Source of the DNA: a virus
Lineage: Duplodnaviria > Caudoviricetes
IMG/VR virus record: IMGVR_UViG_3300037846_000091
Coordinates: 9,015-73,014 of that record
DNA: 64,000 bases
Direction: 5' to 3' (one strand)
The notes under the pieces were generated by a model. That model made no database searches. It was not told the DNA's origin and was given only the letters and a program-made list of their open reading frames with translations. The position numbers were made by a program, and so were the translations under genes. Shown piece after piece: positions 34,937 to 52,044 of this stretch (position 1 is the stretch's first letter; each line of letters begins with the position of its first letter).

Positions 34937-35524
34937 ATGGCTAAGGTTAATTCTAGTGAGTTCCTAACCCCATCGGCTCGCGTCGAGTCCAAGGTAAATG
35001 CCTTAATAAAAGACCTGACTGCTGCTACCAAGAGGATAGCCAAGCTGGAGGAGCTACTTACGAAGGCCAAGGCTATTTGCGTAAACAAGGAACTTCTGAA
35101 GCAGAAGGCTCAAAAGGAAAAGGAACACGAAGACCGCGAAAAGGCCAAGCAGGAGAATCGCAAGAAACTGGAAGAAGATGCGAATGAGATGAATATTAAA
35201 GATTGTCCTTCCGGATTCTTTCTGGCAGAAACCTGCAACGTTCACCGAGGTTCGTCAGGATCAGATTCTATGTTGGACGAGGTCGAAAAAGCAAGAGAGC
35301 ATTATGCTGGGGTTTACGAAGTGCTCATAGTTCAGGGAGCCTACACAGAAGGTTACAAGTACATGGAACCGGAAGGCGTACACCTTAACTTTTCAGGATT
35401 CCGGGTTTTTGTCAAACCGTTACCTCCGGACAAGATCGGCCTCCAACCAGTCGATAGCAACGGACAGAGAGTGTCTTTCAACGGCGAAGGCGGTTTTCGC
35501 GTGGAGAGCAGTACGACGCACTAG
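34937..35524 (+). CDS. AT-richer moron-like protein with N-terminal coiled coil
   Basis: Distinct codon usage; own promoter candidate. Confidence 0.7.
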   Translation: MAKVNSSEFLTPSARVESKVNALIKDLTAATKRIAKLEELLTKAKAICVNKELLKQKAQKEKEHEDREKAKQENRKKLEEDANEMNIKDCPSGFFLAETCNVHRGSSGSDSMLDEVEKAREHYAGVYEVLIVQGAYTEGYKYMEPEGVHLNFSGFRVFVKPLPPDKIGLQPVDSNGQRVSFNGEGGFRVESSTTH

Positions 35525-35549
35525 TGACATTTCGAGTGACAATTCGCCA

Positions 35550-35596
35550 GCGGACTAGCTACCCGCCGGCCACACACTTCTACCGTTTGGGGTAGA
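35550..35596 (+). ncRNA. Late-leader two-hairpin element, copy 1
   Basis: GCGG-AC-TAGCT-AC-CCGC, then TCTACC-GTTTGG-GGTAGA. Confidence 0.6.
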
Positions 35597-35611
35597 CCGC
35601 GGAGATAGTCC

Positions 35612-38600
35612 GTGGACTCCTTCAACGGCGACCCTGCCTACGGCAGCGGCATCAGCATCACCGGCGAGCCGAAGGAACGGGTAGACCGCTTCCCGATTCC
35701 GCAGGTTTTGACTTTTCAGGCGATGCTGGGCATCTCGTGGAAGTCCTACTGGATGGGGCGCCACGATGAGGCCCTGCGCCAGGACCCCGGCTTCGCCCGC
35801 GCGATGCGACACGACCTGTTCAACATGGGCTTGATGCAGGAGCGGGCGCTGGGGGTCGCGTCTCTCAAGTGGCACCTGGAGGTAGACAACGAGCGTGACC
35901 CCACGGAGAAGCTGGTCAAGGATCACATGACGAAGGTCGTGCGCCGCACCTGGCGACGGCAGGAGCTTGTCCGCAATCTGCTTGAGGCTGTCTGGTTCGG
36001 CCGCTACGGCGCGCAGCTCCAGTGCAAGTTCGACTTCATCGACGGCCGCAAGTCTCTGGTAATCGCCAAGCATCGGGCCATCAACGGCGACAAGATCAAC
36101 CACCTGTGGGACGGCACGCCGCACGTCCAGATCATGCCCATCGCAGACCAGTATCTGCCGAAGGGCGTGGAAGTCATGCAGACCAGCGCGCACTTCTACA
36201 ACTCGGGCCGGGCGGTCGTTCTCAGGGGGGAGTTCCGCGAGAATTTCATCATCCACCGTCACCTGGCGATGGACGAGGACTTCGTCGATTACGAAAGGGC
36301 GGCCTGCATCAATGGGGCCGGCGTGCGCGATGTAATTCATTGGTTTGAATGGTTAAAAATGGAGTGGTTGTCGAACGTCACCGATTGGGCCGAACGCGCT
36401 GGCCTCGGCGTGCGGCTGTGGTACTACCCCCTCGGCAACAATGCCGCCAAGGCCAAGGCCGAAGCCAACGCCGCCGACAACACCAGAAAAGTAAACATCA
36501 TCGTTCCCTATGACCCGGAGCAGCGCAGTCCGCACCCGGCGATGGAGTATCAGGACGTGGCCACCGGCGGCCCTGAACTGCTGCTCAAGCTCATCCAGTA
36601 CATCGACGAGGCCAAGCAGCGGTACGTCATCGGCCAGTCGCTATCCAGCGGCACGGAGGGCAGCGGGTTGGGTGGCACGGGTGTTGCGTCGATGCACGCC
36701 AACACGAAGCAGAAGATAGTCGCCTACGACGCCCAGAACCTCGCCGAGACGCTGACCTGCGATCAGCTGGACGTATCGCGCAAGTACACCTTCCCCGAGC
36801 TACCCAGCGACATGCCATGCCGGCTGGTGTTCGACGTGGACGACCCAGAGAGCGAAAAGAAGCTGAACGCGGTCAAGGTGTTCACGGAGATGGGCGGCAC
36901 GGTCATTGCCAACGAAGCCCGGGCCCTCACCGGCCTGAGCGACCCGCAGGAAGGCGACGACGTGATAGGCGGCCAGCAGGCGATGCCCGGCGCTGGTGCC
37001 CCTGGTGTGCCGGGGCAGCCCGGCGCCGATCAGCCGCAGCAGCCTGGCAGGCCGTGGAAGGCGCCGCAGATAGCGCAGCCCGACCCGAACGCGGTGCAGC
37101 AGCCGGAGGTCGCAGCGGCGAGAGCAACCGGCGAAGTGGCCCGCTACGTCACCGACGACACGGGCCGCAAGCACGATGAGTTGGGGCTGTTCACGGGTGA
37201 TGGGAACGCGGCGGCTAAAGGCAACGAAGCCAAGCACGAACACCGCAGCAACATCACCCTGGCGGGCCGCAAGTTTGCCATGTCGTTCCGCAAGGACGGC
37301 AAGACGCACGTTGAAATCAACGGCAACCACAAGGTCGTGACCTACACCCTTGATGGCATCAGGCACGGCTACATCGAGGACGCCGAGGGCGGCAATGTCC
37401 GTGGGTTCGTCATCCGCCGTCAGGCCAAGGAATCGGACCAGAACGACCACGCCCTACCAGTGGACGATACCGACACCATCCAGCAAGAGGCTATGGAGCA
37501 AGCCGCTTCGGATGCCGACCGCAAGAAATTGGAGCGAAAGAAGGAGTTTGAAAAGAAGGTTGGCCATGCGGTGATTCATCCTCAGAGCGTGGCCGGCGAA
37601 CTATCCAAGTCAGGCATACCGACGCACAAGAACACCTCGCGGGAGAAGCGTTCCGGTGTCAGCGTCAGGGCCATTCCCGGCAAGCACACCTGGCTCGCCG
37701 TGGAGTGGAGGGACGCGGGTGGAGACGACAACGACACCAGGGCCAAGTCGGAAGAGGTTCAGAAGCATCTTGAGGAACGCGGATACGCCGTTACCCGGCC
37801 ATTCCCCGACGAAACCATTCTTGCCGTCAGGAAGCCGATCAAGGACGATGAGGATGAGTCGCCAGTCTCCCGCCACGCCTTCGACGAATCCTCCCACCCC
37901 CGCGGCCACGAGGGCAACCCCGGCCAGTTCGCGGCATCCGGTAGCACCGCAGAAGCCTCCCAGCCCGCGCAGGACGCATCCGGCGAGCCGACAGCCCAGC
38001 AGCCGTCCAAGTCCAAGGCAGACGCCTGGCAAGAGCGCCAGACGGCCCGCGACCAGCGCATCATCGACCTGGACACGCTGGAGAACGACGCCGGCACGGT
38101 GGACAAGGCCGACCTGGACGCGCTGGTGAAGGCCGACGCCGAGATAGGGGACACCGGCGACCCAGAGCAAGCAGCGGCGGCGATGAAAGCGTACACAGAC
38201 ACGATCCGCGCCAAGTGGCAGGACGTGGCGGACAGGCTCACGCAGATGGGCGCGAGCGAGCGGGACGCGCGGGCGTTCGGCCGGGCGGCAACGAAGCTCA
38301 ATGCGTACCTCGGGAAAGCGGAGGTCGCGTACACCGCGGCGGCGAGCAAGATCGGTGCAGCGGCGCGGGCTCTGGAGGAAATCGAGGCGCAGGAACCGGA
38401 GGGGCGCGACGAGCAAGAGGAACCGGATGCTTGGGAGGAGCAAGCGGAACCTGATGAGCCCGATCTTCCTGGAGATGAGCCGCAGCAGTCTGAGTATGAA
38501 CGCCTTGGGATTGGTCGGGAAGAGTTTGAAAGGGACCACAACGATTGGATGACTGCCACGGCCGCTTACCCCAAACTGCTGGCGGAATATGAGCAGGCTG

Positions 38601-40573
38601 TTAAAGAGATCGGGCGAATAAATACTGAAGGTCAGGCAGCTTACGATACAGCCTATGCTAACTGGGAAGCCAGCGAAGAGAAAGAGTCCGACGCCTGGCA
38701 GGATGCCCACGACCGATGGGAGGCCAAGCGTGACAAGGCCGAAGAGAAGCACGCCGATCTTTCGAGCAAGTTCAGCGAGCTACTCGACCCCCTCGTCGAG
38801 AAGATGGACGAGCACGAGCAGGCTTGCACGGACGCGCTGTACGGCTTCCTCGAAAGCGAGCGCGACCGAGTAGAGCAGCAGGACACGGCCGACCCGGAAC
38901 CGGATGAGGACGATGAGGAACCGGTGACGCGGCACGCCTTCCACGAGTCCGAGCATCCGCGTGGGCATGAAGGAAACCCAGGGCAATTTGCCGAAAAAGG
39001 CGGTGCCAGCTTTGATACGAGCAGTGCCAAGGCCCCTCCCGGCGGCATCAAGATTGCCGGCAAGAACTTCAAGGCCGGCGAGAGGATTCCTACAGCGATT
39101 TTCAAGCGTGCCGACAAGGACCAGCAGAAGGCCATCAAGGCGGCCAGCGGGGGCGACAAGCCGAAGGAAAAGCCAGCGGCCAGGCCGGCAGAGAAACCTG
39201 CCGACAAACCTGCCGACAAACCGGCAGCGCCCGCGAAGGCGAGCAAGGGGCACCCGGCCGTGGGCACCGGCATCGAGGGCAAGCCACGCGAGGAGCAGCT
39301 TGCAGCGCTGGGCAAGTATTCCATGTCCGGAAGCGGAACCGATGCGAGCCGCGCCGCCGCAAAAGAATGGTTGGAGCATATTGAGGCCGTGAGCGTGCCG
39401 GACAAGGACGCTCTGGCTAACAAGGTCGCAGCCAGCGTCGCGCAGCAGGCCAAGGCAAACCAGTTTCAGTCACCTACGGTTCAGGGTGTGGTGGACGGAC
39501 TGAAGTCCGATGGTCTATCCACCGAGCAGGCGCACAGCGTCATCGTTGCCGGAATTCGCGCCGGCAAACTGCAGCCCGCGCCGTTCACGCGGGCACTGCA
39601 GGACTACACCGGTGGCCTGGAAAACCTGCTGCCGATTGATGGCCAGCTAATGGGCTACCTGCGCCCGGGGGCGAATTCTGCCCGCTCCCACCGCCGCGGC
39701 GACGTGTTCCGCTACACCTTCGACGAGAGCAAGGTGCACCGCGGCCAGCCGGGCAACGCGGGGCAGTTCGGTTCTGGTGGCGGCACGGCGACAACCGACG
39801 AACCAGAGCGTCAGGCCGTCAAGGCAGACGGCAAGATCGCCAAGACGATCAGCAAGGCCAAGGAGACGGTCAAGCGGGTCAAGGGCCAACTGGACGCCAT
39901 TACCGACGTAGCGGTGCTGAAGCAGGCCAAGGCGGCTACAGCATGGCTCAAGGACAAGGCCGGCGAGCTCAAGGCGAAGCTGGAGGCACGGTACGGCAAG
40001 AAAGCCGCCCTGGCGATCCTGGCGACGGGCCAGACGTTCGGTTGGGGCGCGACGGCTGCAGGCGCTGCCGTGGGTGTGCCGGTGTGGCTGCCGGGCAGCA
40101 CTATCTGGGGAAGCCTGCCGGCGATGGCTGTGGCCGAAGTGTTCCTCCAGGCGAGCAAGCTGGTGAGGCATGAGGCCGACGAAGAGGCCGACCTGTCCCC
40201 CGAGGACACCGACGCGATCGCGCAGTGGGTGTTCGGCGAGCTGCAGGCGGAGTACATGGCCTGGCTTCAGGAGCAGGGCATCGGGCAAGATGCGCCGAAG
40301 AAGCACGCGAAGGAGCCAGAGCCTGACCGCCCCCGGCGTGTGGTGACCACGACGGTAACCGAGGGCCTCGACATGGAGGGCAAGCCGCAGAAGGTGGTCA
40401 GCACGGCGATAGCGACGGACCTTGTGCCGCCGCCGTTGCCGCCACCGCCCCGCATCGTCGGCAAGGTCAGGACGCCAGTGCGTGACCCGGTGACGGGACT
40501 GATTGACCACGTGGTGGAGCGCTACGAATACGCGGAGGAGGTAGCCCGTGGTGAGCCGCCTGCAACTGAGTGA
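35612..40573 (+). CDS. Portal protein (DUF935/Mu gp29-like, ~450 aa) with ~1200-aa modular C-terminal extension
   Basis: Follows terminase; LLEAVWFG, GQSLSS..G.G and ETL..DQL blocks; extension with F-x-E-S-x-x-x-R-G-x-x-G-N-x-G-Q-F repeats. Confidence 0.8.
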   Translation: MDSFNGDPAYGSGISITGEPKERVDRFPIPQVLTFQAMLGISWKSYWMGRHDEALRQDPGFARAMRHDLFNMGLMQERALGVASLKWHLEVDNERDPTEKLVKDHMTKVVRRTWRRQELVRNLLEAVWFGRYGAQLQCKFDFIDGRKSLVIAKHRAINGDKINHLWDGTPHVQIMPIADQYLPKGVEVMQTSAHFYNSGRAVVLRGEFRENFIIHRHLAMDEDFVDYERAACINGAGVRDVIHWFEWLKMEWLSNVTDWAERAGLGVRLWYYPLGNNAAKAKAEANAADNTRKVNIIVPYDPEQRSPHPAMEYQDVATGGPELLLKLIQYIDEAKQRYVIGQSLSSGTEGSGLGGTGVASMHANTKQKIVAYDAQNLAETLTCDQLDVSRKYTFPELPSDMPCRLVFDVDDPESEKKLNAVKVFTEMGGTVIANEARALTGLSDPQEGDDVIGGQQAMPGAGAPGVPGQPGADQPQQPGRPWKAPQIAQPDPNAVQQPEVAAARATGEVARYVTDDTGRKHDELGLFTGDGNAAAKGNEAKHEHRSNITLAGRKFAMSFRKDGKTHVEINGNHKVVTYTLDGIRHGYIEDAEGGNVRGFVIRRQAKESDQNDHALPVDDTDTIQQEAMEQAASDADRKKLERKKEFEKKVGHAVIHPQSVAGELSKSGIPTHKNTSREKRSGVSVRAIPGKHTWLAVEWRDAGGDDNDTRAKSEEVQKHLEERGYAVTRPFPDETILAVRKPIKDDEDESPVSRHAFDESSHPRGHEGNPGQFAASGSTAEASQPAQDASGEPTAQQPSKSKADAWQERQTARDQRIIDLDTLENDAGTVDKADLDALVKADAEIGDTGDPEQAAAAMKAYTDTIRAKWQDVADRLTQMGASERDARAFGRAATKLNAYLGKAEVAYTAAASKIGAAARALEEIEAQEPEGRDEQEEPDAWEEQAEPDEPDLPGDEPQQSEYERLGIGREEFERDHNDWMTATAAYPKLLAEYEQAVKEIGRINTEGQAAYDTAYANWEASEEKESDAWQDAHDRWEAKRDKAEEKHADLSSKFSELLDPLVEKMDEHEQACTDALYGFLESERDRVEQQDTADPEPDEDDEEPVTRHAFHESEHPRGHEGNPGQFAEKGGASFDTSSAKAPPGGIKIAGKNFKAGERIPTAIFKRADKDQQKAIKAASGGDKPKEKPAARPAEKPADKPADKPAAPAKASKGHPAVGTGIEGKPREEQLAALGKYSMSGSGTDASRAAAKEWLEHIEAVSVPDKDALANKVAASVAQQAKANQFQSPTVQGVVDGLKSDGLSTEQAHSVIVAGIRAGKLQPAPFTRALQDYTGGLENLLPIDGQLMGYLRPGANSARSHRRGDVFRYTFDESKVHRGQPGNAGQFGSGGGTATTDEPERQAVKADGKIAKTISKAKETVKRVKGQLDAITDVAVLKQAKAATAWLKDKAGELKAKLEARYGKKAALAILATGQTFGWGATAAGAAVGVPVWLPGSTIWGSLPAMAVAEVFLQASKLVRHEADEEADLSPEDTDAIAQWVFGELQAEYMAWLQEQGIGQDAPKKHAKEPEPDRPRRVVTTTVTEGLDMEGKPQKVVSTAIATDLVPPPLPPPPRIVGKVRTPVRDPVTGLIDHVVERYEYAEEVARGEPPATE

Positions 40574-40919
40574 CCTGGCCCGGAATGCCATGTTGGAAGG
40601 GCCCGGCCTGGTTCCGCTGCTCAACGATGGCAAGCTGTGCCTCTACACGAGCAACCGCACAGACGCCCGGTTGCTCGCCACCCTACGATTCGCTGGCCAT
40701 GCCTTCACGGTCAAGGACGGCGAGGCGAAGGCTCGACCGATGGCAGCGGATCAGGACGTTATCCGCGACGGCAAGGCGACGTGGTTCCGGGCGCTGACAC
40801 GCAAGGGTGAGTTGGTGCTTGAGGGAGCGGTGGGTGGTGACCTGACATTGGACCGCGACGACATCCGCCCCGGCAGCCGTGTGGGCGTCGATAGCCTCGT
40901 CCTGCGATTGGGAGAGTAG
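40548..40919 (+). CDS. Virion-associated hypothetical protein
   Basis: LYT..LATL..GKATWFR..EGAVG pattern of phage structural genes. Confidence 0.65.
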   Translation: MVSRLQLSDLARNAMLEGPGLVPLLNDGKLCLYTSNRTDARLLATLRFAGHAFTVKDGEAKARPMAADQDVIRDGKATWFRALTRKGELVLEGAVGGDLTLDRDDIRPGSRVGVDSLVLRLGE

Positions 40920-41014
40920 TGTGCTTCAGCCCTTCCGCCAGCAGTTCGCCTTGCAGTTTTACAAGGAAGCCGCGACGGACCTTATTGTGACCATAACCCA
41001 CAAGGTGTAATCCT

Positions 41015-41638
41015 GTGGCCAAAGAGATCCAAGTCCCCTGGACTGCAACCGGCCAGACGCTGTACGCCGTCGTGCGCAACAGCGTCGGCCTGGCGTGGAA
41101 CGGCGCGTCCTTCGAGAACTACCAGACCGCCCACCTGGCGTCTGAATACGCCATCACCTTGACCGAACAGGGCAGCCACAGCGCCTACTACGCGGGCAAC
41201 ATGCCGGCCGTCGCCGCGGGCTATTACAACGTCGTGGCCTACCAGCAGGCGGGGGGCAGCCCGGCTGAGGGCGACCCATTGGCGGCGGCAGCGGGGATGG
41301 ACTGGACGGGAACCGCGGTTGCCAGCGTCGGGGCGGGCGTGAACGCCACGCAGGTCAACGGCAACGCGACCGCCGCAGCCAACCTGGCCACGGCCTACGG
41401 CGGGTTCCTGATCGGCACGGCGCAGGCCGGCAGCGCCAGTGGCATCACCTTGCCGCCAGCTGCGTCAAGCGTGAACAACTTCTACGCCAACCAATCAATC
41501 ACCATCCTGGCTGGCACAGGGGCGGGCCAGACGAACAAGATCGTCAGCAACGTCGGTCAGGTGGCAACTGTTGAAACTCCGTGGGCGACCGTGCCCGACG
41601 CTACCTCGGTTGTTGCCGTGCTGGGGCGGATCGGCTAA
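41015..41638 (+). CDS. Virion structural hypothetical protein
   Basis: Ala/Gly/Thr-rich; GTAQAGS..ITL..NNFY..GTGAGQ. Confidence 0.7.
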   Translation: MAKEIQVPWTATGQTLYAVVRNSVGLAWNGASFENYQTAHLASEYAITLTEQGSHSAYYAGNMPAVAAGYYNVVAYQQAGGSPAEGDPLAAAAGMDWTGTAVASVGAGVNATQVNGNATAAANLATAYGGFLIGTAQAGSASGITLPPAASSVNNFYANQSITILAGTGAGQTNKIVSNVGQVATVETPWATVPDATSVVAVLGRIG

Positions 41639-44493: not shown

Positions 44494-45248
44494 AAAAGAC
44501 TATCTATACTCTCAACATCTGTGATTACAGCCCGGACATCTGCGCCCTGACCTACCCCCTGATGCGGGCGTGGGCCGACAAGATCGGCGCGGCTTTCCAC
44601 GTCATCCGGGACCGCAAGTGGCCCGACATGCCGCCGGTCTACGAGAAGTTGCAGATTTACGACCTGGCCCGCGAGCGCGGCGACGACTGGAGCATCTTCT
44701 TGGACGGGGACACGCTGGTCTATCCCAACATGTTCGACCCGACTGAGTTCCTGCATCGGCGCGAAGTTTTTTGTCACATGAACGACATGGCAAACATGCG
44801 CTTCCGCTCCAACGACATTTTCCGCCGCGACGGCCGCAGTATAGGGTGGACGAACTGGCTTGCCATTGCTTCCAGCTGGTGCCGTGACCTGTGGCACCCA
44901 TTGGAGGACATGACATTCTCGGAGGCGGTCGCCAACATCACCACCACTTTAGAGGAGCGAAACAAGGGGATAACTCCCGATCACCTAATCGACGATTATG
45001 TCTTGAGTTACAATGTCGCCAAGTACGGGCTGCACTTCAAGACGTTCCCGGCCATGCTTCAGTCGCTCGGAATGGACCCGAAGGCGCAGGCGTTCTGGCA
45101 CAACTACACCTTCAGCGAAGAGCAGAAGGTCGTGGAGATGCGCAAGGTGCTGCAATCGTGGGGCATGGCCCGGGCCGATGAATTGCCGGCGACGACGAAT
45201 GGCAGGCCGCATCAACCGAGGGAGTCCACCCTATGCGTCCAATCCTAG
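44490..45248 (+). CDS. GT-A glycosyltransferase-like protein
   Basis: YEKLQI..WSIFLDGDTLV (DxD motif). Confidence 0.75.
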   Translation: MKKTIYTLNICDYSPDICALTYPLMRAWADKIGAAFHVIRDRKWPDMPPVYEKLQIYDLARERGDDWSIFLDGDTLVYPNMFDPTEFLHRREVFCHMNDMANMRFRSNDIFRRDGRSIGWTNWLAIASSWCRDLWHPLEDMTFSEAVANITTTLEERNKGITPDHLIDDYVLSYNVAKYGLHFKTFPAMLQSLGMDPKAQAFWHNYTFSEEQKVVEMRKVLQSWGMARADELPATTNGRPHQPRESTLCVQS

Positions 45249-45565
45249 ATGAAGACGTTCCGCGACATTCAACCGGAATATACAGAAGTGGCAAGACGTG
45301 CGATTGCGGCATTGTCGAAAGTTGGGAAGGATTCCAACAGCGCATCGCCGGCTATGGATGGAAGCATGAAACTGTCTTTTCCTGCGACCATTTCAAGCAA
45401 AGGACAATGGAATCTCCATGCCGTTTCTGCGGCAAGAAGAATACGCCGGTTCGCCAGGTGCCGGTGCCGATTCCGGTAAGCGATTGCTACTGTGACGACT
45501 GCGCTAGCAAGTGCGCTGATTTTTACCACAGCGCTATGAAGGAGTCGCCATGCGCCCAATCCTGA
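45233..45565 (+). CDS. Cys-rich hypothetical protein
   Basis: CDC, CRFC and CYCDDC; coupled on both sides. Confidence 0.55.
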   Translation: MRPILDEDVPRHSTGIYRSGKTCDCGIVESWEGFQQRIAGYGWKHETVFSCDHFKQRTMESPCRFCGKKNTPVRQVPVPIPVSDCYCDDCASKCADFYHSAMKESPCAQS

Positions 45566-46500
45566 GCATGGACACGGTGCAAATCGAAATCACGGACGCC
45601 TGCGTGTTCCGCTGCGGCAACTGCACGCGGTTCTGCGGCAGCAAAAAGCCGTTCTACATGGAGATGGATTACTACCGCCGCGCCGTCGATAGCATGGTGG
45701 GCTACCCTAACATGGTCGGGATCATGGGCGGCGAGCCTCTGCTTCATCCGCAATTCGCGGAGATATGCGACTATGCCCTGGCCACGTTGGGCAAGAAACA
45801 TCTCGGGCTGTGGTCCACCTTCCCGGCGGGGTACGAACACCATCGGGATACCATCTGCCGGACGTTCGACTATATTTTCCTGAACGACCATTCCCGCGGC
45901 GACATCTTTCATTCGCCGATCCTGGTGTCATCCGACCACGTTTTCAGGAATGATCCTGAAAACCCCCTACGCTGGCAACTCATCAACGACTGCTGGGTTC
46001 AGAACACCTGGTCGGCTTCGATCAACCCAAAGGGCGCGTTTTTCTGCGAGGTCGCGGCATCGCTCTCCATGCTCTTCGATGGACCCGCCGGCTGGCCGGT
46101 CGAACCCGGCTGGTGGCGCAGAATGCCCTGGCAGTACGGCGAGCAGATCGAATGGGCGTGCAGGCGCTGCGGCTGCGCCATGCCGTTGCAGCGCCGAAGC
46201 AGCCAGGACGAACGCGACGACGTTAGCCCAGACAACCTGATTCAGCTTGGCCTGGTCAAGAGCAAGAAGGTAGCGGCCGGGGACGTGGTTGTCCACGAAG
46301 CTCCGCAACTGGTGTCGAAGGGGGAGCTTGCCTATCACCAGGCTTACAAGGACACCGCCTGGCGGCAGACCGTGGCGGCCAAGTACGGGATCTTCCTGGA
46401 GGTCACCGACCGGGGATTCTGGCGCCCACACTTGCAGAAATGCATTTCTGCAGCGAGCCGGCCATCGGCGTTTGCCGAGATGCAGGCGAAGTATCAGTGA
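45550..46500 (+). CDS. Radical SAM protein
   Basis: CVFRCGNC (CxxxCxxC), GGEPLLHP, extra C-terminal cysteines. Confidence 0.9.
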   Translation: MRPILSMDTVQIEITDACVFRCGNCTRFCGSKKPFYMEMDYYRRAVDSMVGYPNMVGIMGGEPLLHPQFAEICDYALATLGKKHLGLWSTFPAGYEHHRDTICRTFDYIFLNDHSRGDIFHSPILVSSDHVFRNDPENPLRWQLINDCWVQNTWSASINPKGAFFCEVAASLSMLFDGPAGWPVEPGWWRRMPWQYGEQIEWACRRCGCAMPLQRRSSQDERDDVSPDNLIQLGLVKSKKVAAGDVVVHEAPQLVSKGELAYHQAYKDTAWRQTVAAKYGIFLEVTDRGFWRPHLQKCISAASRPSAFAEMQAKYQ

Positions 46501-46654
46501 GGCTGTGATTCCGCGAGCCTGTCAGCCTCAATAGCCTCTTGCGCGTAAGCACCTTCGATGCCCACCATGTACCATTCGCCGAGAAACTGTGGGCAGTGAT
46601 ACCTGACCACGACCAGCGTTCCGGCCCTGAAGATTTGGCCGTCTCTGGTTATGG

Positions 46655-46999
46655 TCACTCCAGGGGCAGGGCACGGATGGCGGACGCCGCTTTCTCAAGG
46701 GCAGTCGCCTTGTGCCTGTAGACTTCTCGCCAGGCAAGATCGGTTTGCTTCTCACCTTGCTCAGAGATGATGCCAGCGTTCTCGATCATCTTGGCCGCGC
46801 ACCGCTCTCGCATGTCGGCGACGGCCGCCTTCGTGTGCTCTGGCGGCCACCAGCCTTCTTGCAGGGCCAGTAGCGCCTGCAGCCGTTCGACTTCGGCGAG
46901 CAGGTCGGTGATGTGTTCGTTATAAGGCCAACCGATCAGGCGACGTTTTAATACTTTTGACGCAACCCTTCTAATTTCCGCCAGCCTCTCGGGTGTCAT
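46655..46999 (-). CDS. Opposite-strand phage hypothetical protein
   Basis: MTPERLAEIR..DLLAEVERL..MRERCA..AIRALPL; GAGGGA RBS. Confidence 0.7.
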   Translation of the reverse strand: MTPERLAEIRRVASKVLKRRLIGWPYNEHITDLLAEVERLQALLALQEGWWPPEHTKAAVADMRERCAAKMIENAGIISEQGEKQTDLAWREVYRHKATALEKAASAIRALPLE

Positions 47000-47035
47000 C
47001 GCAGTCCCTCAATTCGACTTCGGCATCTCCCAGCC

Positions 47036-47575
47036 ATGATACTCCACCTGCCCTGTGGAGGAAACGCCGTGGCTTTGTGGGATAGGTTCCTCAATCGTGT
47101 TTTCGGCGCTCGCGTGGCTGGTGCATGGGCACAGCGCAGTGCTAACCGCGCCGCCGCCAAGGCTCAGGCAGAGTTGCGCGGCAAGCGCGGCGGCAAGATG
47201 GTCGAGGGCCACCGCGGCATCGGCGTGGGTCTGGGCGCCAAGCCAGGGCCGAAGAAGTCCACCGGGCAGGACGTAAACCGGCAGAGCATCGGCAAGGACG
47301 AAATCGAGGACTTTTTGTGGCACGGAGCGCCGCTGTTCGTTTACTCAAGTAACGTGGGCTTTTGCCAGTATTACCCCGAGACGGAGAAGATGCAAATTGA
47401 GTACCTGGCCAAGGGCAACAAGCCGGCACGGAAGTACCTGTACTCCAGCGTGACCCACGCCGAAGCTCTTGATTTTGCACAGGCGCAGTCGAAAGGAATC
47501 TGGGTCTGGGACCACATTCGCGTGCGCGGCAAGGGTAACGCGCACTTGAGCCGCAAGCCGTTTGTTGAGCTGTGA
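47036..47575 (+). CDS. KTSC-domain protein
   Basis: SSNV..YYPETEKMQIEY..YLY..AQSKG. Confidence 0.75.
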   Translation: MILHLPCGGNAVALWDRFLNRVFGARVAGAWAQRSANRAAAKAQAELRGKRGGKMVEGHRGIGVGLGAKPGPKKSTGQDVNRQSIGKDEIEDFLWHGAPLFVYSSNVGFCQYYPETEKMQIEYLAKGNKPARKYLYSSVTHAEALDFAQAQSKGIWVWDHIRVRGKGNAHLSRKPFVEL

Positions 47576-47619
47576 CGATTTGCACCCGGCACCCCGTTCC
47601 GGCGATAGTGGTTCCCGAC

Positions 47620-48822
47620 ATGGCCGCCAACCCGCGATTTGACGACCCGAACCTCTGGACCGTGGAAGACGGGGTAACGGTCTTTGACGAACATGATGAA
47701 CCGCAAGACGATGGGACAGTGCAGCGGTTCGACAAGCCCCGGCTGGAAGGCATAGTCCGCAACTGCAACGTGAAGGACCAGCAGGGCCAGTATTGCAAAT
47801 TGACTTTGGGGCACACGAAAGACGATGCTCCTGAATACGAACAGCCCGAGAGCGTGGGATTCGCTCGCAAGTTCCGGGTGGAGTGGAGTCAGGAGCTTGG
47901 CCGCTGGGTAATCCGGTGCGCCTACTTTTTGAACAAGGGTAAGGAAGGGGTGGCAAGGACGTACCCCAGCACCTCGGTAGAGAGGTGGATTCGCAGCGAC
48001 TTTTTTGACCCGATTGCCCTGTTGAGGCGAACGCCCGACAGGCCGGTGGGTCAGTGGACATACGCCCGCAAGGGTGAGGTCGTCCGATACGCGATGGGAG
48101 CAACCATGAGTCCCGCAGCCGCAGCCCCCGCAACGCCAGTCATGCCGAGCGCCACCAACGGGGCAGCCCCCGCGCCGAAGGCCGAGAAGCCGCCCTACCC
48201 CGAGGGCGTGCAGCCGGGCTCTCCCGACGCCGACTTCCATGACAAGGTCGTGCGGTCGATGAAGCACTGCTACGGCAAGGAGCTGGACAGCCTGGCCGGT
48301 GGCACCCCGAACCCCGGCCTTGAGGCACCGCAGGTCAAGGCCCCGGTCCCGAAGTTCCCCGAGCCTGGCAACGACGACGACAAGGGCAAGGACAAGCTGG
48401 CCAAGGACGATGAGGAGCGGAAGCGCATGGCGATGGAGGGCGAGCGCATCAAGTACGCCGCCCTGGAAGAGCGGCAACGGGCCACCGAAGCCGAGCTGGC
48501 CGTGATGCGGTACGAGAAGAAAAAGGCCGTCGTCGAGCGGAAGATCACTCAGGTTGAGGCCGAAGGTTACGTCCTCAACCGGCCCGTTGAGTTCGAGACG
48601 GTCATGAAGATGGAGGACAAGGAGCAGGATGCCTACCTCGAAGGCATCAAGCAGTATCGGCACAAGGCTCCCATCGGCAACCGCTTCTTCGACACGGGAC
48701 CGGCTCCCATCGGCGGACAGCCTCGCTTCGATCAGAACAAGCTGGACAAGGCCCTCGAAATCCATCGCAGCACGGGCGTGACGATGGAAGAGGCGGCCAA
48801 GCAGGTGATGAACGGACAGTGA
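47620..48822 (+). CDS. Prohead protease / scaffold fusion (Mu gpI-like)
   Basis: LGHT (His) and YPSTSVE (Ser) region, IALL..TP, then Pro/Ala linker and coiled coil; start 47620 or 47572. Confidence 0.7.
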   Translation: MAANPRFDDPNLWTVEDGVTVFDEHDEPQDDGTVQRFDKPRLEGIVRNCNVKDQQGQYCKLTLGHTKDDAPEYEQPESVGFARKFRVEWSQELGRWVIRCAYFLNKGKEGVARTYPSTSVERWIRSDFFDPIALLRRTPDRPVGQWTYARKGEVVRYAMGATMSPAAAAPATPVMPSATNGAAPAPKAEKPPYPEGVQPGSPDADFHDKVVRSMKHCYGKELDSLAGGTPNPGLEAPQVKAPVPKFPEPGNDDDKGKDKLAKDDEERKRMAMEGERIKYAALEERQRATEAELAVMRYEKKKAVVERKITQVEAEGYVLNRPVEFETVMKMEDKEQDAYLEGIKQYRHKAPIGNRFFDTGPAPIGGQPRFDQNKLDKALEIHRSTGVTMEEAAKQVMNGQ

Positions 48823-48865
48823 TCGAGGGGCCGCCCGAGTCGGCGGCCGCAGATTTAGCCTCAAT

Positions 48866-48930
48866 CGGGAGTAGCTACCCGATGAGGGAGCGTAGCCAAA
48901 CCTACGCATACCGTGGCCGTTTGGGGCCGC
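48866..48930 (+). ncRNA. Late-leader two-hairpin element, copy 2
   Basis: CGGG-AG-TAGCT-A-CCCG, then GTGGCC-GTTTGG-GGCCGC. Confidence 0.6.
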
Positions 48931-48963
48931 CGACCGAGTGGCCCCTTTCGACTGAGGTGTGCG

Positions 48964-49779
48964 ATGCCTTTCAACGTCGGTATTCCGGTCCTTGGCACGT
49001 TCAGCCAGGCATCTCTCGCCAGCGGCACAACGGCCGCGACCATGCTCATCCCGCCGTTCGCCGGACCCATCGGCGGGGCGCCTTACCTCTACAACGCCAA
49101 CCAGACCAACGTGCCGCTGACGATCGCCGTGGTGCAGACGAAAGCCAACTGGCTGCAGTCGCCGCAGTTCGGCGTGCCGCACATTACCTCGATCATCGTC
49201 AACGCCAGCGCCACTAGCCACACGGTCACAATTCTGCGGCCCCTCAACTGGACCTATTTCCCCGCGGGCCTGGCCAAGAATACCACGGCCATCCCCAACG
49301 GGTCGGGCGCCAGCAGCACCGGGCTCTACGACGACCCCGGCGTCTACAGCACCAACTACAAGTATCCGACGCCTGGCTCAGTGGCCCCCGGCCTGGTGGC
49401 CGATGCCGCGATCAGCGGCACCAACCTCGCCGTGTGCTATCAGCTTGCCGATGGCACCTGGCAGTATGACACCATTGCGTCGGGTACGTTCAACAGCAGC
49501 TTGACGCTGACCACGGGCACCCCCAACCGCACGGGCGGGGCCATTCCGGCGGGTGCTCCCCTGTTCTACTTCGGCGTGCTTGCCGGCACTCTGCTTGACC
49601 CCGCGACGGGCCTGGCCGGCTGGCAGTTCGCAACCAAGGTCAGCGCCGTGGACACCTACACCGATGTGCTGACGGGGCTGTTCAACGGGCTCCACTATGG
49701 CGACCCACTGATTTGCTACGACGCGAACGCCACCGCCGCTGACAGCATCATGGTAACGGGCTATTACGGGGCGTACTAA
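48964..49779 (+). CDS. Head-associated structural hypothetical protein
   Basis: GAGG RBS, ATG 48964; Thr/Gly-rich. Confidence 0.7.
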   Translation: MPFNVGIPVLGTFSQASLASGTTAATMLIPPFAGPIGGAPYLYNANQTNVPLTIAVVQTKANWLQSPQFGVPHITSIIVNASATSHTVTILRPLNWTYFPAGLAKNTTAIPNGSGASSTGLYDDPGVYSTNYKYPTPGSVAPGLVADAAISGTNLAVCYQLADGTWQYDTIASGTFNSSLTLTTGTPNRTGGAIPAGAPLFYFGVLAGTLLDPATGLAGWQFATKVSAVDTYTDVLTGLFNGLHYGDPLICYDANATAADSIMVTGYYGAY

Positions 49780-49789
49780 CGAGGGCACA

Positions 49790-50203
49790 ATGGCCGACGA
49801 AAAGAAATCGCAGAGCAAGGAAGAGGCGAAGGAACAGTTTCGCCGCCAGGCTGCGCTGGCCATCCTGGGCGCCTTCGTGAGCCGCACCGGCGGCTTCGGC
49901 ACGGAGCTGGAGCGGACGGACATCGCTCGCATGGTCTGGCGGTTTGCCGATGCCTTCGTGGACGCGGAGAACGCGCCAGTCCTACAGCCAACGCCGACGA
50001 TGGAGAGCAGGCCGCGACCCGCAGGCCGTCCTGCACACCCGAGCGACGAATGGGCGGTGCGGTATGGCGACAAGCAGCGGCGGGGATTCACGAGCCACGA
50101 AGAGGCTGTGTTCTACGCGGCGAGCAAGCCGGGGGCAACGGTTGTGCTGGTAAGTGGCCCGGAGATGACGGGCGTGCTGACCGCGCCGGCATCGGTTCCG
50201 TGA
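49790..50203 (+). CDS. Hypothetical protein
   Basis: GAGGG RBS. Confidence 0.65.
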   Translation: MADEKKSQSKEEAKEQFRRQAALAILGAFVSRTGGFGTELERTDIARMVWRFADAFVDAENAPVLQPTPTMESRPRPAGRPAHPSDEWAVRYGDKQRRGFTSHEEAVFYAASKPGATVVLVSGPEMTGVLTAPASVP

Positions 50204-50252
50204 GAGGTTTCAAGGACTTATTAAGTCCCAGAAAGTCTGAGAGGGTTCAATC

Positions 50253-50645
50253 ATGACTGGCACCGCGGCTGGCAACATAACCCCATCGGCCTTCGTAGTT
50301 CGCGCGACCACGACGGACGCACAGTACCTACTGGCGACCGGCAACAGCACGCCGATTGCCGGCATCAGCGGCATCGGCACGCGCTACCCGCCCTACGCCG
50401 GCTTGAACGACGGCAACATTGCGATTGCCGGCGAGAACTTTCGGCTGTACCAGGCCGGGCGCGACCTGGAAGCGCCCCTTATGCTGGGCGGCACGGTTGC
50501 CGCAGGCGACCTGCTCACCAGCGATGCCAACGGGCACGGCATCACCACCACGACGGCGGGCCAGTTCATCGGCGCACAGGCAATGATGGCCGGGGTTGCC
50601 AATCAGGTGATTTCGGTCAAGCCGATGTTCGGGCCGCAATCGTAA
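50253..50645 (+). CDS. Capsid cement / decoration protein (DUF2190-like)
   Basis: GGTVAAGDLLTSDANG; directly upstream of the MCP. Confidence 0.7.
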   Translation: MTGTAAGNITPSAFVVRATTTDAQYLLATGNSTPIAGISGIGTRYPPYAGLNDGNIAIAGENFRLYQAGRDLEAPLMLGGTVAAGDLLTSDANGHGITTTTAGQFIGAQAMMAGVANQVISVKPMFGPQS

Positions 50646-50663
50646 ACATTTGAGAGGCAAGTG

Positions 50664-50715
50664 GGGGGTAGCTTCCCCGCGAGCCACCGGAACATACGCG
50701 GTCGTTTGGGGCCGC
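50664..50715 (+). ncRNA. Late-leader two-hairpin element, copy 3
   Basis: GGGGG-TAGCT-TCCCC, then GCGGTC-GTTTGG-GGCCGC. Confidence 0.6.
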
Positions 50716-50749
50716 CGACAACGGGTAATTTCATCCGTCGAGGCGATCC

Positions 50750-51838
50750 ATGACCACGCCAGTTTTTCCGAGCGCGACGAACCTCTTTATCCCCCAGGCA
50801 ACTGGCCAGGTGATTGGGTTCCTCCGGAAGCCAGGCAAGTTCAAGCTTTTCGATTACGCCCAGCTGGTCAAGTCCACTCGCACGGGTGGCGACGGCTGGC
50901 CTGTCTGCCTCTTCACCACCATCGACCCCGACGCGCCGGTGCGAGTCGTCACCGACCAGGAGTACGCCTGGGAAGATGGCGACGATCCCCCGGAAGGCAG
51001 CGGGATGATGGTGAACTTCACCACGACGGAAGTCCGCATGTTCCGGCGGGCCTATCCGTACCGGATCGGCGAGCAGGCCGCGGACACTGCCAACCTCTTC
51101 CCCGTGCTGCCGGTCTACCGTCAGGTCGCGCTGATGGAGGCCATGACGAACAAAACGGCCCGCGTGTGGACGCTGCTCGACAACGCGACCAACTGGGGCA
51201 ACAACACCGCCGATGCCAACGTGCTGAATGGCGGCAAGGGCAAGTGGACCACGGCCAGCGCCACCGAGGGCAGTCCCTACTATCTCGCCATCAAGCGGTC
51301 TGTCACCGCGGCCGTTCAGGCGATCAACCTGGCGACGAACAGCGTGGTTCAGCCAGAGGACCTGAAGCTCGTCATCAGCCCCATGCTGGCCATGAACGCG
51401 GCCAACTCCGGAGAAATCACGGATTACCTCAAGGGCAGCCCGTTCGCCAAGATGCAGCAGGAAGGCAAGGAGCGCGGCAAGAACCAGCAGTACGGCTTCC
51501 CCGATTACTACGGTGGGGTCGAGGTCGTGGTCGAGGACGCCAGCCGCGTGACCGACCGTCCCTACGGCGGCAGCAGCGCCGGCACCACCAGTACCACGAA
51601 CCGTAACTATATCAAGGGCGCGACCAACGCGGTGCTCATCAGCCGACAGGGTGGCCTGGATGGGGTCGAGGGCGCACCGAGTTTCAGTACTCTACAAATT
51701 TACTACTACAAGTACGAAATGGCCGTCGAAGAGCGTACAGATCAGTGGGCGAAAAGGGTGGATGGAAGAGTTCTGGATCAATTCAAGGAAGTCCTTTCGG
51801 CCTCGCGTGCTGGTTACGATATAACAAACTGTCAATAA
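50750..51838 (+). CDS. Major capsid protein
   Basis: 362 aa, position after protease and cement genes, strongly biased codons. Confidence 0.7.
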   Translation: MTTPVFPSATNLFIPQATGQVIGFLRKPGKFKLFDYAQLVKSTRTGGDGWPVCLFTTIDPDAPVRVVTDQEYAWEDGDDPPEGSGMMVNFTTTEVRMFRRAYPYRIGEQAADTANLFPVLPVYRQVALMEAMTNKTARVWTLLDNATNWGNNTADANVLNGGKGKWTTASATEGSPYYLAIKRSVTAAVQAINLATNSVVQPEDLKLVISPMLAMNAANSGEITDYLKGSPFAKMQQEGKERGKNQQYGFPDYYGGVEVVVEDASRVTDRPYGGSSAGTTSTTNRNYIKGATNAVLISRQGGLDGVEGAPSFSTLQIYYYKYEMAVEERTDQWAKRVDGRVLDQFKEVLSASRAGYDITNCQ

Positions 51839-51858
51839 AGGGATAGGTCAAGTAGAAA

Positions 51859-52044
51859 ATGGCCTACAAGGACACACACGGCAACCTGGCGCTGCCGACT
51901 CTGGAAGATGGTCGCGTGCCGGTCAGCGACGACGCCGACAACAGCGTATTCGAGCAAATGCTGCTGGAGTTGCGGGCCATCCGAATCGGCTTGGAATTGC
52001 AGCTTGGGATTGACCGGGACGACCTAATCGAAAAGGCGAGGTGA
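51859..52044 (+). CDS. Hypothetical protein
   Basis: LLELRAIRIGL; follows the MCP. Confidence 0.6.
   Translation: MAYKDTHGNLALPTLEDGRVPVSDDADNSVFEQMLLELRAIRIGLELQLGIDRDDLIEKAR

What the first reader, a model, noticed from the sequence alone, without database searches (positions are those of the whole stretch)
35550..50715. Conserved two-hairpin RNA element with covarying stem in three late-gene leaders
Seen: upstream of the portal (35550-35596), gene 48964 (48866-48930) and the major capsid gene (50664-50715) is a G/C stem enclosing TAGCT, followed by a 6-bp stem closing an invariant GTTTGG loop. The second stem differs in sequence but always pairs: TCTACC/GGTAGA, GTGGCC/GGCCGC, GCGGTC/GGCCGC. 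Copies 2 and 3 also share an exact 17-mer, CGTTTGGGGCCGCCGAC. Spacing between the hairpins varies, and the element ends 15-34 nt before the start codon. Established: loop-specific hairpins such as lambda boxB or coat-protein operators control antitermination or translation. Inference: a late-gene cis-regulatory RNA read by a phage protein, with the KTSC protein in the same module as one candidate. I recognise no named family for it.
Basis: partly seen in the sequence, partly recalled or inferred. Interest (0 to 1): 0.8.

Follow-up and report, generated by a model that had tools for sequence, protein, structure and literature searches.

The report
Folded RNA switch before phage head genes
The three flagged sites are real copies (one complete, two cut-down) of a previously uncatalogued folded RNA that fills the gaps between head genes in a clade of soil phages. 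It most likely gates how much of the next head gene is expressed.

Summary
GTTTGG occurs 15 times in the window. Only four copies lie in a 6-bp stem, and all four are in the three flagged leaders.

Relatives whose capsid protein is 42-88% identical carry the same element before the gene-48964 homologue, the scaffold-like gene or the capsid gene. The full form (window 48823-48951) is about 130 nt. It has:
- a long closing helix (P0) running from just after the upstream stop codon to the downstream ribosome site;
- hairpin hp1, with a conserved apex (TAGCT);
- a middle hairpin (hpM) whose loop L1 is the exact complement of the hp2 loop L2;
- hp2 itself, whose 3' arm is shared with a GC-rich hairpin followed by a U-tract, terminator-like in most relatives.

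L1 and L2 covary through at least five sequence classes, even within one genome. GUUUGG is therefore an RNA pairing partner (a pseudoknot), not a protein-read invariant. The portal and capsid copies in the window are reduced forms.

Soil metatranscriptome contigs span the elements. There is no Rfam match.

Best reading: a cis-acting RNA switch (attenuator or ribosome-site gate). An RNase III processing stalk is the main rival. The KTSC idea remains untested.

The scan has reported a different folded leader before scaffold genes in other phages.

The parts
48820..48822 (+). Stop codon (TGA) of the upstream head-module gene 47572-48822. The long helix P0 starts 2-3 nt after it.
48825..48848 (+). 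Copy 2 (the full element). This is the 5' strand of the long-range helix P0. On its own it can fold as the local hairpin hp0 (GGCCGCC 48829-48835 with GGCGGCC 48842-48848).
   Evidence: The minimum-free-energy fold has z = -6.0 and is shown again. The upstream flank and the terminator region are specifically complementary in 13 elements: matched -52 against mismatched -33 kcal/mol.
48859..48887 (+). Copy 2, hairpin hp1. The stem is CCTCA.ATCGGG / CCCGAT.GAGG and the apex is AGTAGCTA, which holds the conserved TAGCT.
   Evidence: The stem covaries in relatives.
48890..48907 (+). Copy 2, middle hairpin hpM: GCGTAG - CCAAAC (loop L1, 48896-48901) - CTACGC.
   Evidence: The hpM stem covaries. L1 is the exact complement of L2.
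48913..48930 (+). Copy 2, hairpin hp2: GTGGCC - GTTTGG (loop L2, 48919-48924) - GGCCGC. Its 3' arm is shared with the terminator-like hairpin and with P0.
48923..48948 (+). Copy 2, terminator-like hairpin: GGGGCCGC - CGACCGA - GTGGCCCC, followed by TTT. It is also the 3' strand of P0 (about 48925-48950). The U-tract is weak here but is T4-T6 in most relatives.
48954..48966 (+). Shine-Dalgarno GAGG (48954-48957) and the ATG of gene 48964.
50661..50680 (+). Copy 3 (reduced form, before the capsid gene), hairpin hp1: a 7-bp stem around GTAGCT.
   Evidence: The covariance-model hit 50659-50752 scores 26.3 bits, E = 1e-4.
50698..50715 (+). Copy 3, hairpin hp2: GCGGTC - GTTTGG - GGCCGC. The position where hpM would sit (about 50684-50697) is degenerate.
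50711..50752 (+). Copy 3, alternative helix. The hp2 3' arm plus CGAC (50711-50719) can pair with GTCGAGGC (50737-50744, which contains the Shine-Dalgarno GAGG). The ATG is at 50750. The same layout is seen in relative L038.
   Evidence: Minimum-free-energy folds. The pairing is predicted only.
35547..35570 (+). Copy 1 (reduced form, before the portal fusion gene), hairpin hp1: GCGG - ACTAGCTAC - CCGC, with an outer GCC/GGC. It differs from hp1 of relative L068 only in the two central loop bases.
35579..35596 (+). Copy 1, hairpin hp2: TCTACC - GTTTGG - GGTAGA.
35597..35615 (+). Copy 1, hairpin CCGCGGA - GATAG - TCCGTGG. It buries the Shine-Dalgarno GGAG and the GTG start (35612).
   Evidence: Minimum-free-energy and centroid folds. 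Predicted only.

Best explanation
The element is a structured RNA embedded in the polycistronic head-gene transcript. It acts in cis on expression of the gene immediately downstream by switching between mutually exclusive folds.

**Closed fold.** The middle hairpin hpM plus the L1:L2 pairing form an H-type pseudoknot. This takes up the hp2 loop and leaves the hp2 5' arm as a connecting strand. The hp2 3' arm is then free to join either the GC-rich hairpin with its U-tract or the long helix P0. P0 runs from the upstream stop codon to the downstream ribosome-binding site.

**Open fold.** hp2 forms and withholds that strand, acting as an antiterminator or anti-sequestrator.

**Output.** In members with T4-T6 the output would be intrinsic termination. 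In the window's own copies, where the U-tracts are weak, it would more likely be access to the ribosome-binding site.

**Shown:** the helices, their covariation, their overlaps, the strandedness, and transcription.

**Inferred:** that the switch regulates expression, and what flips it. Candidates for the trigger are a ribosome terminating on the stop codon that abuts P0, or a factor bound to the conserved hp1 apex.
For: 1. **Conserved in relatives.** 15 full elements were found in relatives with 42-88% capsid identity. They always lie before the gene-48964 homologue, the scaffold-like gene or the capsid gene. Covariance-model scores are 60-89 bits.
2. **Consensus fold and covariation.** The RNAalifold consensus contains hp1, hpM and the terminator-like hairpin. 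Pairs are 86% standard against 79% in shuffles, and the covariation score is 0.273 against 0.174 (0 of 500 shuffles reach it). Slid controls give about 55%.
3. **L1:L2 covary.** L1:L2 is complementary in every full element, through the classes CCAAAC/GTTTGG, CCAAAAC/GTTTTGG, CCTTGA/TCAAGG, CCATTT/AAATGG, CTTCACA/TGTGAAG and CCGTAAA/TTTACGG. Matched Watson-Crick runs average 6.15 nt against 3.65 for mismatched pairs (0 of 20000 permutations reach the observed mean).
4. **Geometry favours a pseudoknot.** The hpM-hp2 linker is 0-5 nt. By inference this rules out an intramolecular kissing complex but fits an H-type pseudoknot. The one copy with a 6-bp hpM stem also has the longest linker.
5. **Shared strand.** The hp2 3' arm lies inside the 5' arm of the downstream GC-rich hairpin in all aligned members. 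That hairpin is followed by T4-T6 in 9 of the 13 elements parsed and is the top terminator-like hit in L037.
6. **P0 covaries.** Each element's own partner ranks first in 11 of 13 and second in 2 of 13. In 8 of 13 elements the helix starts within 4 nt of the upstream stop codon.
7. **Sense-strand RNA.** The sense strand folds better than the antisense in 11 of 13 elements (p = 0.008), with more G.U pairs.
8. **Transcribed.** Metatranscriptome contigs cover 47.1-52.6 kb but not the 5 kb upstream, and they span copy 2 and bridge copy 3.
Against: - **No direct evidence of switching.** Nothing here shows termination, switching or any regulatory effect.
- **Read-through contigs.** The RNA contigs show read-through molecules.
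- **U-tract not universal.** Four full elements (L003, L043, L068 capsid copy, and the window's copy 2 with only TTT) lack a convincing U-tract, so termination cannot be the universal output.
- **Wrong direction for capsid supply.** A terminator in front of the capsid gene would lower expression of the protein needed in the greatest amount.
- **Ribosome site not always hidden.** The Shine-Dalgarno sequence is not sequestered in copy 2.
- **No known regulator.** No antiterminator or RNA-binding regulator family was found among 85 window ORFs.
- **Reduced copies keep GUUUGG without a partner.** They have no cis L1, which the model does not explain except by descent or gene conversion.
Confidence: 0.45

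Rival explanations
1. RNase III processing and mRNA-stability module. The 22-30 bp helix P0 is a processing stalk. Cutting it would separate the upstream, low-abundance messages from the protease/scaffold/capsid messages. The downstream mRNA would be left with a stable 5' hairpin next to its ribosome site. The inner hairpins would be accessory structures or a released by-product.
For: - P0 is the most universal and most stable feature, with matched duplexes of -45 to -64 kcal/mol.
- It spans the whole intercistronic gap from stop codon to ribosome site.
- It is present even in members that lack a U-tract (L043, L068 capsid copy).
- The element occurs at any one of three positions before the abundant head proteins. 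That fits segmental mRNA stabilisation better than attenuation does.
- Long duplexes of this length are classical RNase III substrates in T7, lambda and rRNA operons (own knowledge).
Against: - It does not explain why hp2 competes for the P0 strand, why L1:L2 covary, or why canonical T4-T6 tracts follow the helix in most members.
- The reduced copies (window copies 1 and 3, L037a, L038a) have no P0 at all.
- RNA contigs span the intact element (X4 record 21, 48016-48971), and contig ends do not fall inside P0.
- Both P0 strands are themselves hairpins, which a simple stalk does not need.
Confidence: 0.25
2. Trans-acting or self-associating RNA. Alternatively they would pair between the full copy's hpM and the hp2 loops of the reduced copies. 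Either way this would link head-gene messages, or it would form an RNA assembly used in head morphogenesis.
For: - Both the hpM and hp2 stems covary, as if both hairpins exist.
- In the three genomes with one full and one or two reduced copies (window, L037, L038), the reduced copies keep the L2 that matches the full copy's L1. In the genome with two full copies (L068) the two use different, orthogonal pairs.
- Window copy 1 keeps GTTTGG on a quite different stem.
- The element sits in the portal/head module.
Against: - The shared L2 in reduced copies is explained more simply by recent duplication or gene conversion: a 17-mer is shared in the window and a 20-mer in L037.
- The thermodynamically dominant fold (P0) removes hp2.
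- The RNA is part of an mRNA, not a separate gene.
- Rfam scans, which would include any packaging-RNA model the library holds, gave no match.
Confidence: 0.1
3. A phage RNA-binding protein (for example the KTSC protein) reads a loop of the element and so controls antitermination or translation, in the manner of boxB/N or a coat-protein operator.
For: - The hp1 apex (GAG-UAG-CUC, with variants UAAUUA and UAAGCU) is the only single-stranded sequence conserved across distant relatives, so it is a plausible protein site.
- A KTSC gene lies in the head module of the window and of L036, L038, L039, L070, L071 and L140.
Against: - The loop proposed as the protein site (GUUUGG) is not invariant. It covaries with an RNA partner.
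- No KTSC hit is on record in L068 or L069, which carry the element.
- KTSC has no demonstrated RNA-binding role that I could cite.
- Nothing links the protein to the RNA beyond gene neighbourhood.
Confidence: 0.1
4. DNA-level feature: either a promoter or operator with inverted repeats, or a miniature inverted-repeat mobile element whose terminal repeats are the P0 arms.
For: - P0 looks like 25-bp terminal inverted repeats around a 75-bp core.
- The element is present or absent at orthologous gaps in related genomes.
- L1 and L2 are the same duplex motif in opposite orientation.
Against: - Arms and loops covary instead of being conserved.
- G.U pairs and folding energy favour the sense strand.
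- All copies are in the sense orientation, and copies within one genome are not near-identical over their length.
- There is no sigma-70-like promoter at the sites, and no phage RNA polymerase or sigma gene.
- Transcripts run through the element from the upstream gene.
Confidence: 0.05

Closest known systems
Terminator / antiterminator / anti-antiterminator leaders, especially pseudoknot-based expression platforms such as the Bacillus preQ1-I riboswitch (own knowledge)
   Same: - A hairpin (hp2) shares its 3' arm with the 5' arm of a GC-rich hairpin followed by a U-tract.
- A pseudoknot formed by an upstream hairpin loop captures the antiterminator strand.
- The element lies directly before the regulated gene.
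   Different: - There is no conserved ligand pocket. The pseudoknot helices vary freely and covary, so this is not a small-molecule aptamer.
- The element is intercistronic, inside an operon, rather than at the 5' end.
- It has an extra long-range helix to the upstream stop codon.
- The U-tract is missing in some members.
- There is no Rfam match.
Processive antitermination RNAs: HK022 put and the Bacillales EAR element (own knowledge)
   Same: - They are cis-acting folded RNAs of about 70-120 nt in phage or long operons.
- EAR is intercistronic and pseudoknotted.
- They are followed by terminators that must be read through.
   Different: - There is no sequence or covariance-model similarity in the Rfam scans.
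- Action on RNA polymerase is untested.
- Here the terminator is built into the element and competes with hp2.
Phage T7 and lambda RNase III processing sites (own knowledge)
   Same: - They are long, mostly paired helices in intergenic regions of phage polycistronic mRNAs.
- They set message ends and stability.
   Different: - T7 sites are simple irregular hairpins.
- Here the helix encloses a three-way junction with a pseudoknot.
- Each strand is itself a hairpin.
- Cleavage has not been shown.
ANTAR-regulated dual-hairpin leaders (own knowledge)
   Same: Two tandem short hairpins with hexanucleotide loops, the second overlapping a terminator.
   Different: - The loops lack the conserved A1/G4 pattern and are instead complementary to each other.
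- No ANTAR-domain protein is present in the phage.
phi29 packaging RNA (own knowledge)
   Same: - Two loops in one RNA are mutually complementary and covary.
- It is associated with the phage head and portal.
   Different: - The phi29 packaging RNA is a separate 174-nt gene product that binds the connector.
- Here the RNA is an mRNA leader, and an intramolecular pseudoknot explains the pairing.
- There is no Rfam match.
Candidate structured RNAs upstream of phage capsid and scaffold genes (PMC10690425), and the P22 scaffold autoregulation lead from earlier scan note e1-5353735
   Same: Large-scale surveys already predict cis-regulatory RNAs before major capsid genes. Head-gene dosage control at the RNA level has precedent.
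   Different: - Those candidates are uncharacterised, and identity with this element was not checked.
- The element reported earlier in the scan lies in actinobacterial phages and is a different RNA.

Membership tests
Any Rfam 15 family | Covariance-model score at or above the family's gathering threshold | tested here: not met
   There were 0 hits in the whole window at the gathering threshold. In 48780-50780 at E<=5 there were only four sub-threshold chance hits, none on the elements.
Intrinsic-terminator attenuator | GC-rich hairpin immediately followed by a U-tract | tested here: inconclusive
   Met in relatives: T6 in L004, L037 (both copies) and L038b, and T4-T5 in L036, L039, L068b, L069, L070, L140 and L142. 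Weak or absent in the window itself (TTT at 48946-48948 and none at copies 1 and 3; one search finds none) and in L003, L043 and L068a.
Intrinsic-terminator attenuator | Alternative hairpin that shares a strand with the terminator stem | tested here: met
   The hp2 3' arm lies within the 5' arm of the terminator-like hairpin in the aligned members.
Intrinsic-terminator attenuator | Termination that is modulated by a signal | not testable with these tools
   This needs transcription assays or end-mapping. Contig-level RNA data show only that read-through molecules exist.
ANTAR target RNA | Two hexaloops with conserved A at position 1 and G at position 4, plus an ANTAR-domain regulator | tested here: not met
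   The loops are CCAAAC and GUUUGG and are variable elsewhere. No PF03861 hit was found among 85 ORFs.
Lambda-type nut site (boxA/boxB with N) | 5-bp stem with a GNRA-like pentaloop, preceded by boxA, with an N-like protein | tested here: not met
   The stems are 4-7 bp with 6-9 nt loops of other sequence. No N- or Q-family hit was found.
RNase III processing stalk | About 20 bp or more of near-continuous duplex RNA | tested here: met
   P0 is predicted at 22-30 bp in 13 elements, and its complementarity covaries.
RNase III processing stalk | Staggered cleavage in the duplex | not testable with these tools
   Only assembled RNA contigs were available. They cannot show molecule ends.
phi29-type packaging RNA | A separate small RNA gene with the conserved packaging-RNA fold that binds the connector | tested here: not met
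   There is no Rfam hit. The element is continuous with the flanking coding RNA in the contigs.
Miniature inverted-repeat mobile element | Near-identical copies, conserved terminal repeats, either orientation | tested here: not met
   Copies within one genome differ by compensatory changes (L068a against L068b). The arms covary rather than being conserved. All copies are in the sense orientation.

The most novel reading that the evidence does not exclude
The element is a bistable, translation-reset RNA device.

- A ribosome finishing the upstream head gene sits on the stop codon that abuts P0 and melts its outer turn.
- hp2 then captures the freed strand and holds the leader open. Transcription read-through and/or initiation on the next head gene is thereby licensed only by translation of the previous one.
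- The pseudoknot resets the closed state.
- In addition, the L1 loop of the full copy may address the matching hp2 loops of the reduced copies elsewhere on the late messages, tying portal, scaffold-block and capsid expression together through RNA-RNA contacts.
Probability: 0.15. Interest if true: 0.8.

Novelty: new variant of a known kind. Interest (0 to 1): 0.6.

Why it matters
Little is known about how phages set the very unequal amounts of portal, scaffold and capsid protein. This is especially true outside model hosts. One 45%-identical capsid relative lies in a Tuwongella (planctomycete) genome.

The element is compact, strongly covarying and already seen in soil RNA. Its features are:
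- a pseudoknot;
- a strand-sharing hairpin;
- a cruciform-like pair of identical hairpins that can merge into one long helix.

These features make it a ready-made test case for RNA-level dosage control inside a late operon. It also adds a well-defined family to the catalogue of phage RNAs. Its partly modular forms (full and reduced) offer natural mutants for dissecting the mechanism.

Tried and rejected
- **Exact-pattern scan for the combined motif.** A scan of the viral collection for TAGCTWCCC...CGTTTGGGG gave 23 hits. All were chance matches without stems, mostly in coding sequence.
- **Second pattern scan.** CACCGCAGCC...GGGGCTG gave 65 loci. The covariance model kept only the two already known.
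- **BLAST of 48800-51900 against deposited phage genomes:** no match.
- **Metagenome scan with the capsid alignment:** only 8 loci, few of them useful.
- **Two scans of prokaryote genomes:** none encoded a relative.
- **Tuwongella prophage relative:** its head genes abut, so there is no leader. The single model hit in that genome lies inside an ORF and does not fold like the element, so it was rejected as chance.
- **Covariance model in 151 genomes of that phylum:** not found in those searched.
- **First crude L1:L2 test:** it was confounded by the GC-rich arms. It was redone on loops only.
- **Sigma-70 promoter and terminator consensus scan of the window:** nothing at the sites.
- **Pfam and PHROG searches of the flanking proteins, and an Atlas look-up of gene 48964:** no function assigned.
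- **RNA depth per bin and contig ends:** too coarse to show termination or processing. Uncovered stretches between contigs carry no weight.
- **Intramolecular kissing of hpM and hp2:** rejected on geometry, because the linkers are only 0-5 nt.
Full report
**What the window is.** The window is bases 9015-73014 of a 73-kb IMG/VR virus record with 62% G+C. The flagged sites lie in the head module. Copy 1 is before a 1653-aa ORF whose N-terminus is a Mu-type portal. Copy 2 is before gene 48964, a viral protein of unknown function. Copy 3 is before the 362-aa capsid protein, directly after a scaffold-like gene. One capsid homologue at 45% identity lies in a Tuwongella immobilis genome, which hints at a planctomycete host range for the wider group.

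**Checking the observation.** Every stated coordinate and sequence is correct.
- GTTTGG is under-represented in the window: 15 occurrences against 34 expected.
- Only four occurrences have a 6-bp flanking stem; the other eleven have 0-3 bp.
- Three of the four are the flagged hairpins. The fourth lies on the minus strand at 48901. On the plus strand it is a hairpin GCGTAG-CCAAAC-CTACGC, between the two hairpins of copy 2.
- The TAGCT hairpins are likewise confined to the three sites in the whole genome.

**Relatives.** The capsid protein has about 100 homologues in metagenomes. I fetched the surrounding DNA for relatives with 42-88% capsid identity.
- Their leaders before the capsid gene, the scaffold-like gene or the gene-48964 homologue carry the same architecture.
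- A covariance model built from 12 full elements recovers 15 distinct full elements at 60-89 bits. This includes phages whose capsid is only 42-49% identical (L031, L043, L140, L142).
- The model also finds reduced copies at 14-35 bits, among them window copy 3 at 26 bits.
- Window copy 1 is not recovered at E<=1. Its first hairpin, however, differs from that of L068 only in the two central loop bases.

**Anatomy of the full element (window 48823-48951).**
1. Hairpin hp1 has a stem that covaries (GGG/CCC, CCGGAG/CTCTGG, CCGGG/CCCGG, GCCAAG/CTTGGC) and a conserved apex (TAGCT; variants TAAGCT, TAATTA, CTGATC).
2. The middle hairpin hpM has a stem that also covaries (GGTG/CACC, GCGTAG/CTACGC, GATG/CATC, ACG/CGT).
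3. Hairpin hp2 follows.
4. A GC-rich hairpin follows, whose 5' arm contains the hp2 3' arm. It is followed by T4-T6 in most relatives but only by TTT in the window.
5. A 22-30 bp long-range helix, P0, forms between the sequence just after the upstream stop codon and the terminator-like region.
   - Matched partners give -52 kcal/mol against -33 (sd 8) for partners from other elements. Each element's own partner ranks first in 11 of 13.
   - In 8 of 13 elements P0 starts within 4 nt of the stop codon.
   - Both P0 strands are themselves hairpins, so the RNA can sit as two local hairpins or as one long helix.

**The key correction.** The hpM loop (L1) is the exact complement of the hp2 loop (L2), and the two change together.
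- The classes seen are CCAAAC/GTTTGG, CCAAAT/GTTTGG (a G.U pair), CCAAAAC/GTTTTGG, CCAAAA/TTTTGG, CCTTGA/TCAAGG, CCATTT/AAATGG, CTTCACA/TGTGAAG and CCGTAAA/TTTACGG.
- Matched Watson-Crick runs average 6.15 nt against 3.65 for mismatched pairs. No permutation out of 20000 reaches the observed mean.
- L068 holds two full copies with different pairs, so the loop is not read by one shared factor.
- The linker between hpM and hp2 is only 0-5 nt. Both hairpins therefore cannot stand while their loops pair.
- The pairing does fit an H-type pseudoknot in which the hp2 5' arm becomes the connecting strand (inference from helix geometry).
- That fold is compatible with P0 or with the terminator-like hairpin, but it excludes hp2.

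**RNA or DNA?** The evidence points to sense-strand RNA.
- The sense strand folds better than the antisense in 11 of 13 elements (mean difference 5.7 kcal/mol, p = 0.008), and it uses more G.U pairs (78 against 48).
- All copies are in the sense orientation, and the U-tracts are on the sense strand.
- Two soil metatranscriptomes hold contigs of this phage that cover 47.1-52.6 kb but essentially nothing in the preceding 5 kb. One contig spans all of copy 2 (48016-48971) and another bridges copy 3 (50396-51280).
- The elements are therefore transcribed as part of messages that continue into the next gene.
- No sigma-70-like promoter is predicted at the sites, and no phage polymerase or sigma gene was found.

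**Mechanism.** What is shown is a set of mutually exclusive helices centred on one strand, the hp2 3' arm. That strand can pair with the hp2 5' arm, with the 3' arm of the terminator-like hairpin, or with the P0 5' strand. A covarying pseudoknot removes the hp2 option.
- This is the logic of antiterminator, terminator and anti-antiterminator. I take a cis-acting switch as the best reading (0.45).
- In members with T4-T6 the output would be termination. In the window's copies the predicted alternatives instead involve the ribosome site. In copy 3 the hp2 3' arm region can pair with the Shine-Dalgarno sequence. In copy 1 a hairpin adjacent to hp2 buries the Shine-Dalgarno sequence and the GTG start.
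- The trigger is unknown. The stop codon abutting P0 suggests the terminating ribosome. The conserved hp1 apex suggests a protein.
- The main rival is an RNase III stalk (0.25). It explains P0 and the position before abundant head proteins. It does not explain hp2, the pseudoknot, the U-tracts or the P0-less reduced copies.

**Comparison with known systems.**
- There is no Rfam match at the gathering threshold or at E<=5.
- The element is not an ANTAR target, a nut site or a packaging RNA by their defining features (see the membership table).
- A survey of IMG/VR predicted uncharacterised structured RNAs upstream of major capsid genes (PMC10690425), so the kind is expected.
- The scan itself has reported a different folded leader before scaffold genes in actinobacterial phages.
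- Another first-stage note on this same genome independently pointed out the complementary loops and the 10-bp stem that excludes the GTTTGG hairpin. My analysis agrees and extends it with relatives.

**Verdict.** This is a real, new, well-supported RNA family with an unusual combination of features. Its function is inferred, not shown.

Noticed in passing
window 35612-40573: A 1653-aa ORF has a Mu-type portal domain only in residues 63-441. The remaining roughly 1200 residues match no Pfam or PHROG family. Relatives have similarly large portal fusions of 1100-1700 aa.
   Followed up: no
window 46999-47104: Metatranscriptome contig cover begins near 47104, just inside the first plus-strand gene (47036) after two minus-strand genes (46494-46999). 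A divergent late promoter probably lies at about 47000-47035.
   Followed up: no
L038 5760-5790 and 6525-6550: The leaders of the KTSC gene and of the gene-47572 homologue in relative L038 share the 13-mer CATCTCCCGGACA. L070 has CTTCCCGGACG at the same place. This may be a promoter or operator motif of the head operon.
   Followed up: no
L063 2895-2915 and 3368-3390: In a distant relative (capsid 31% identical), two near-identical hairpins (GCCGG-ATAACTA-CCGGC and GCCGG-ATAATTA-CCGGC) sit 4-5 nt before the Shine-Dalgarno sequences of two consecutive head genes, one of them the capsid gene. They may be an hp1-only form of the element or an unrelated operator.
   Followed up: partly
window 34937-35524: The ORF upstream of copy 1 has much lower third-position G+C (0.54) than its neighbours (0.70-0.84). 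It may be a recent acquisition or not a real gene.
   Followed up: no
window 35528-35536, 48851-48856, 50647-50652: All three window copies have A-N-A-T-T-T (ACATTT, AGATTT, ACATTT) 12-25 nt upstream of hp1. This resembles an RNase E-type A/U-rich site. It is not conserved in relatives.
   Followed up: partly
L071 1115-3934: The large gene after the portal region in relative L071 carries a 2'-5' RNA ligase / 2H phosphoesterase domain (precomputed Pfam hit).
   Followed up: no
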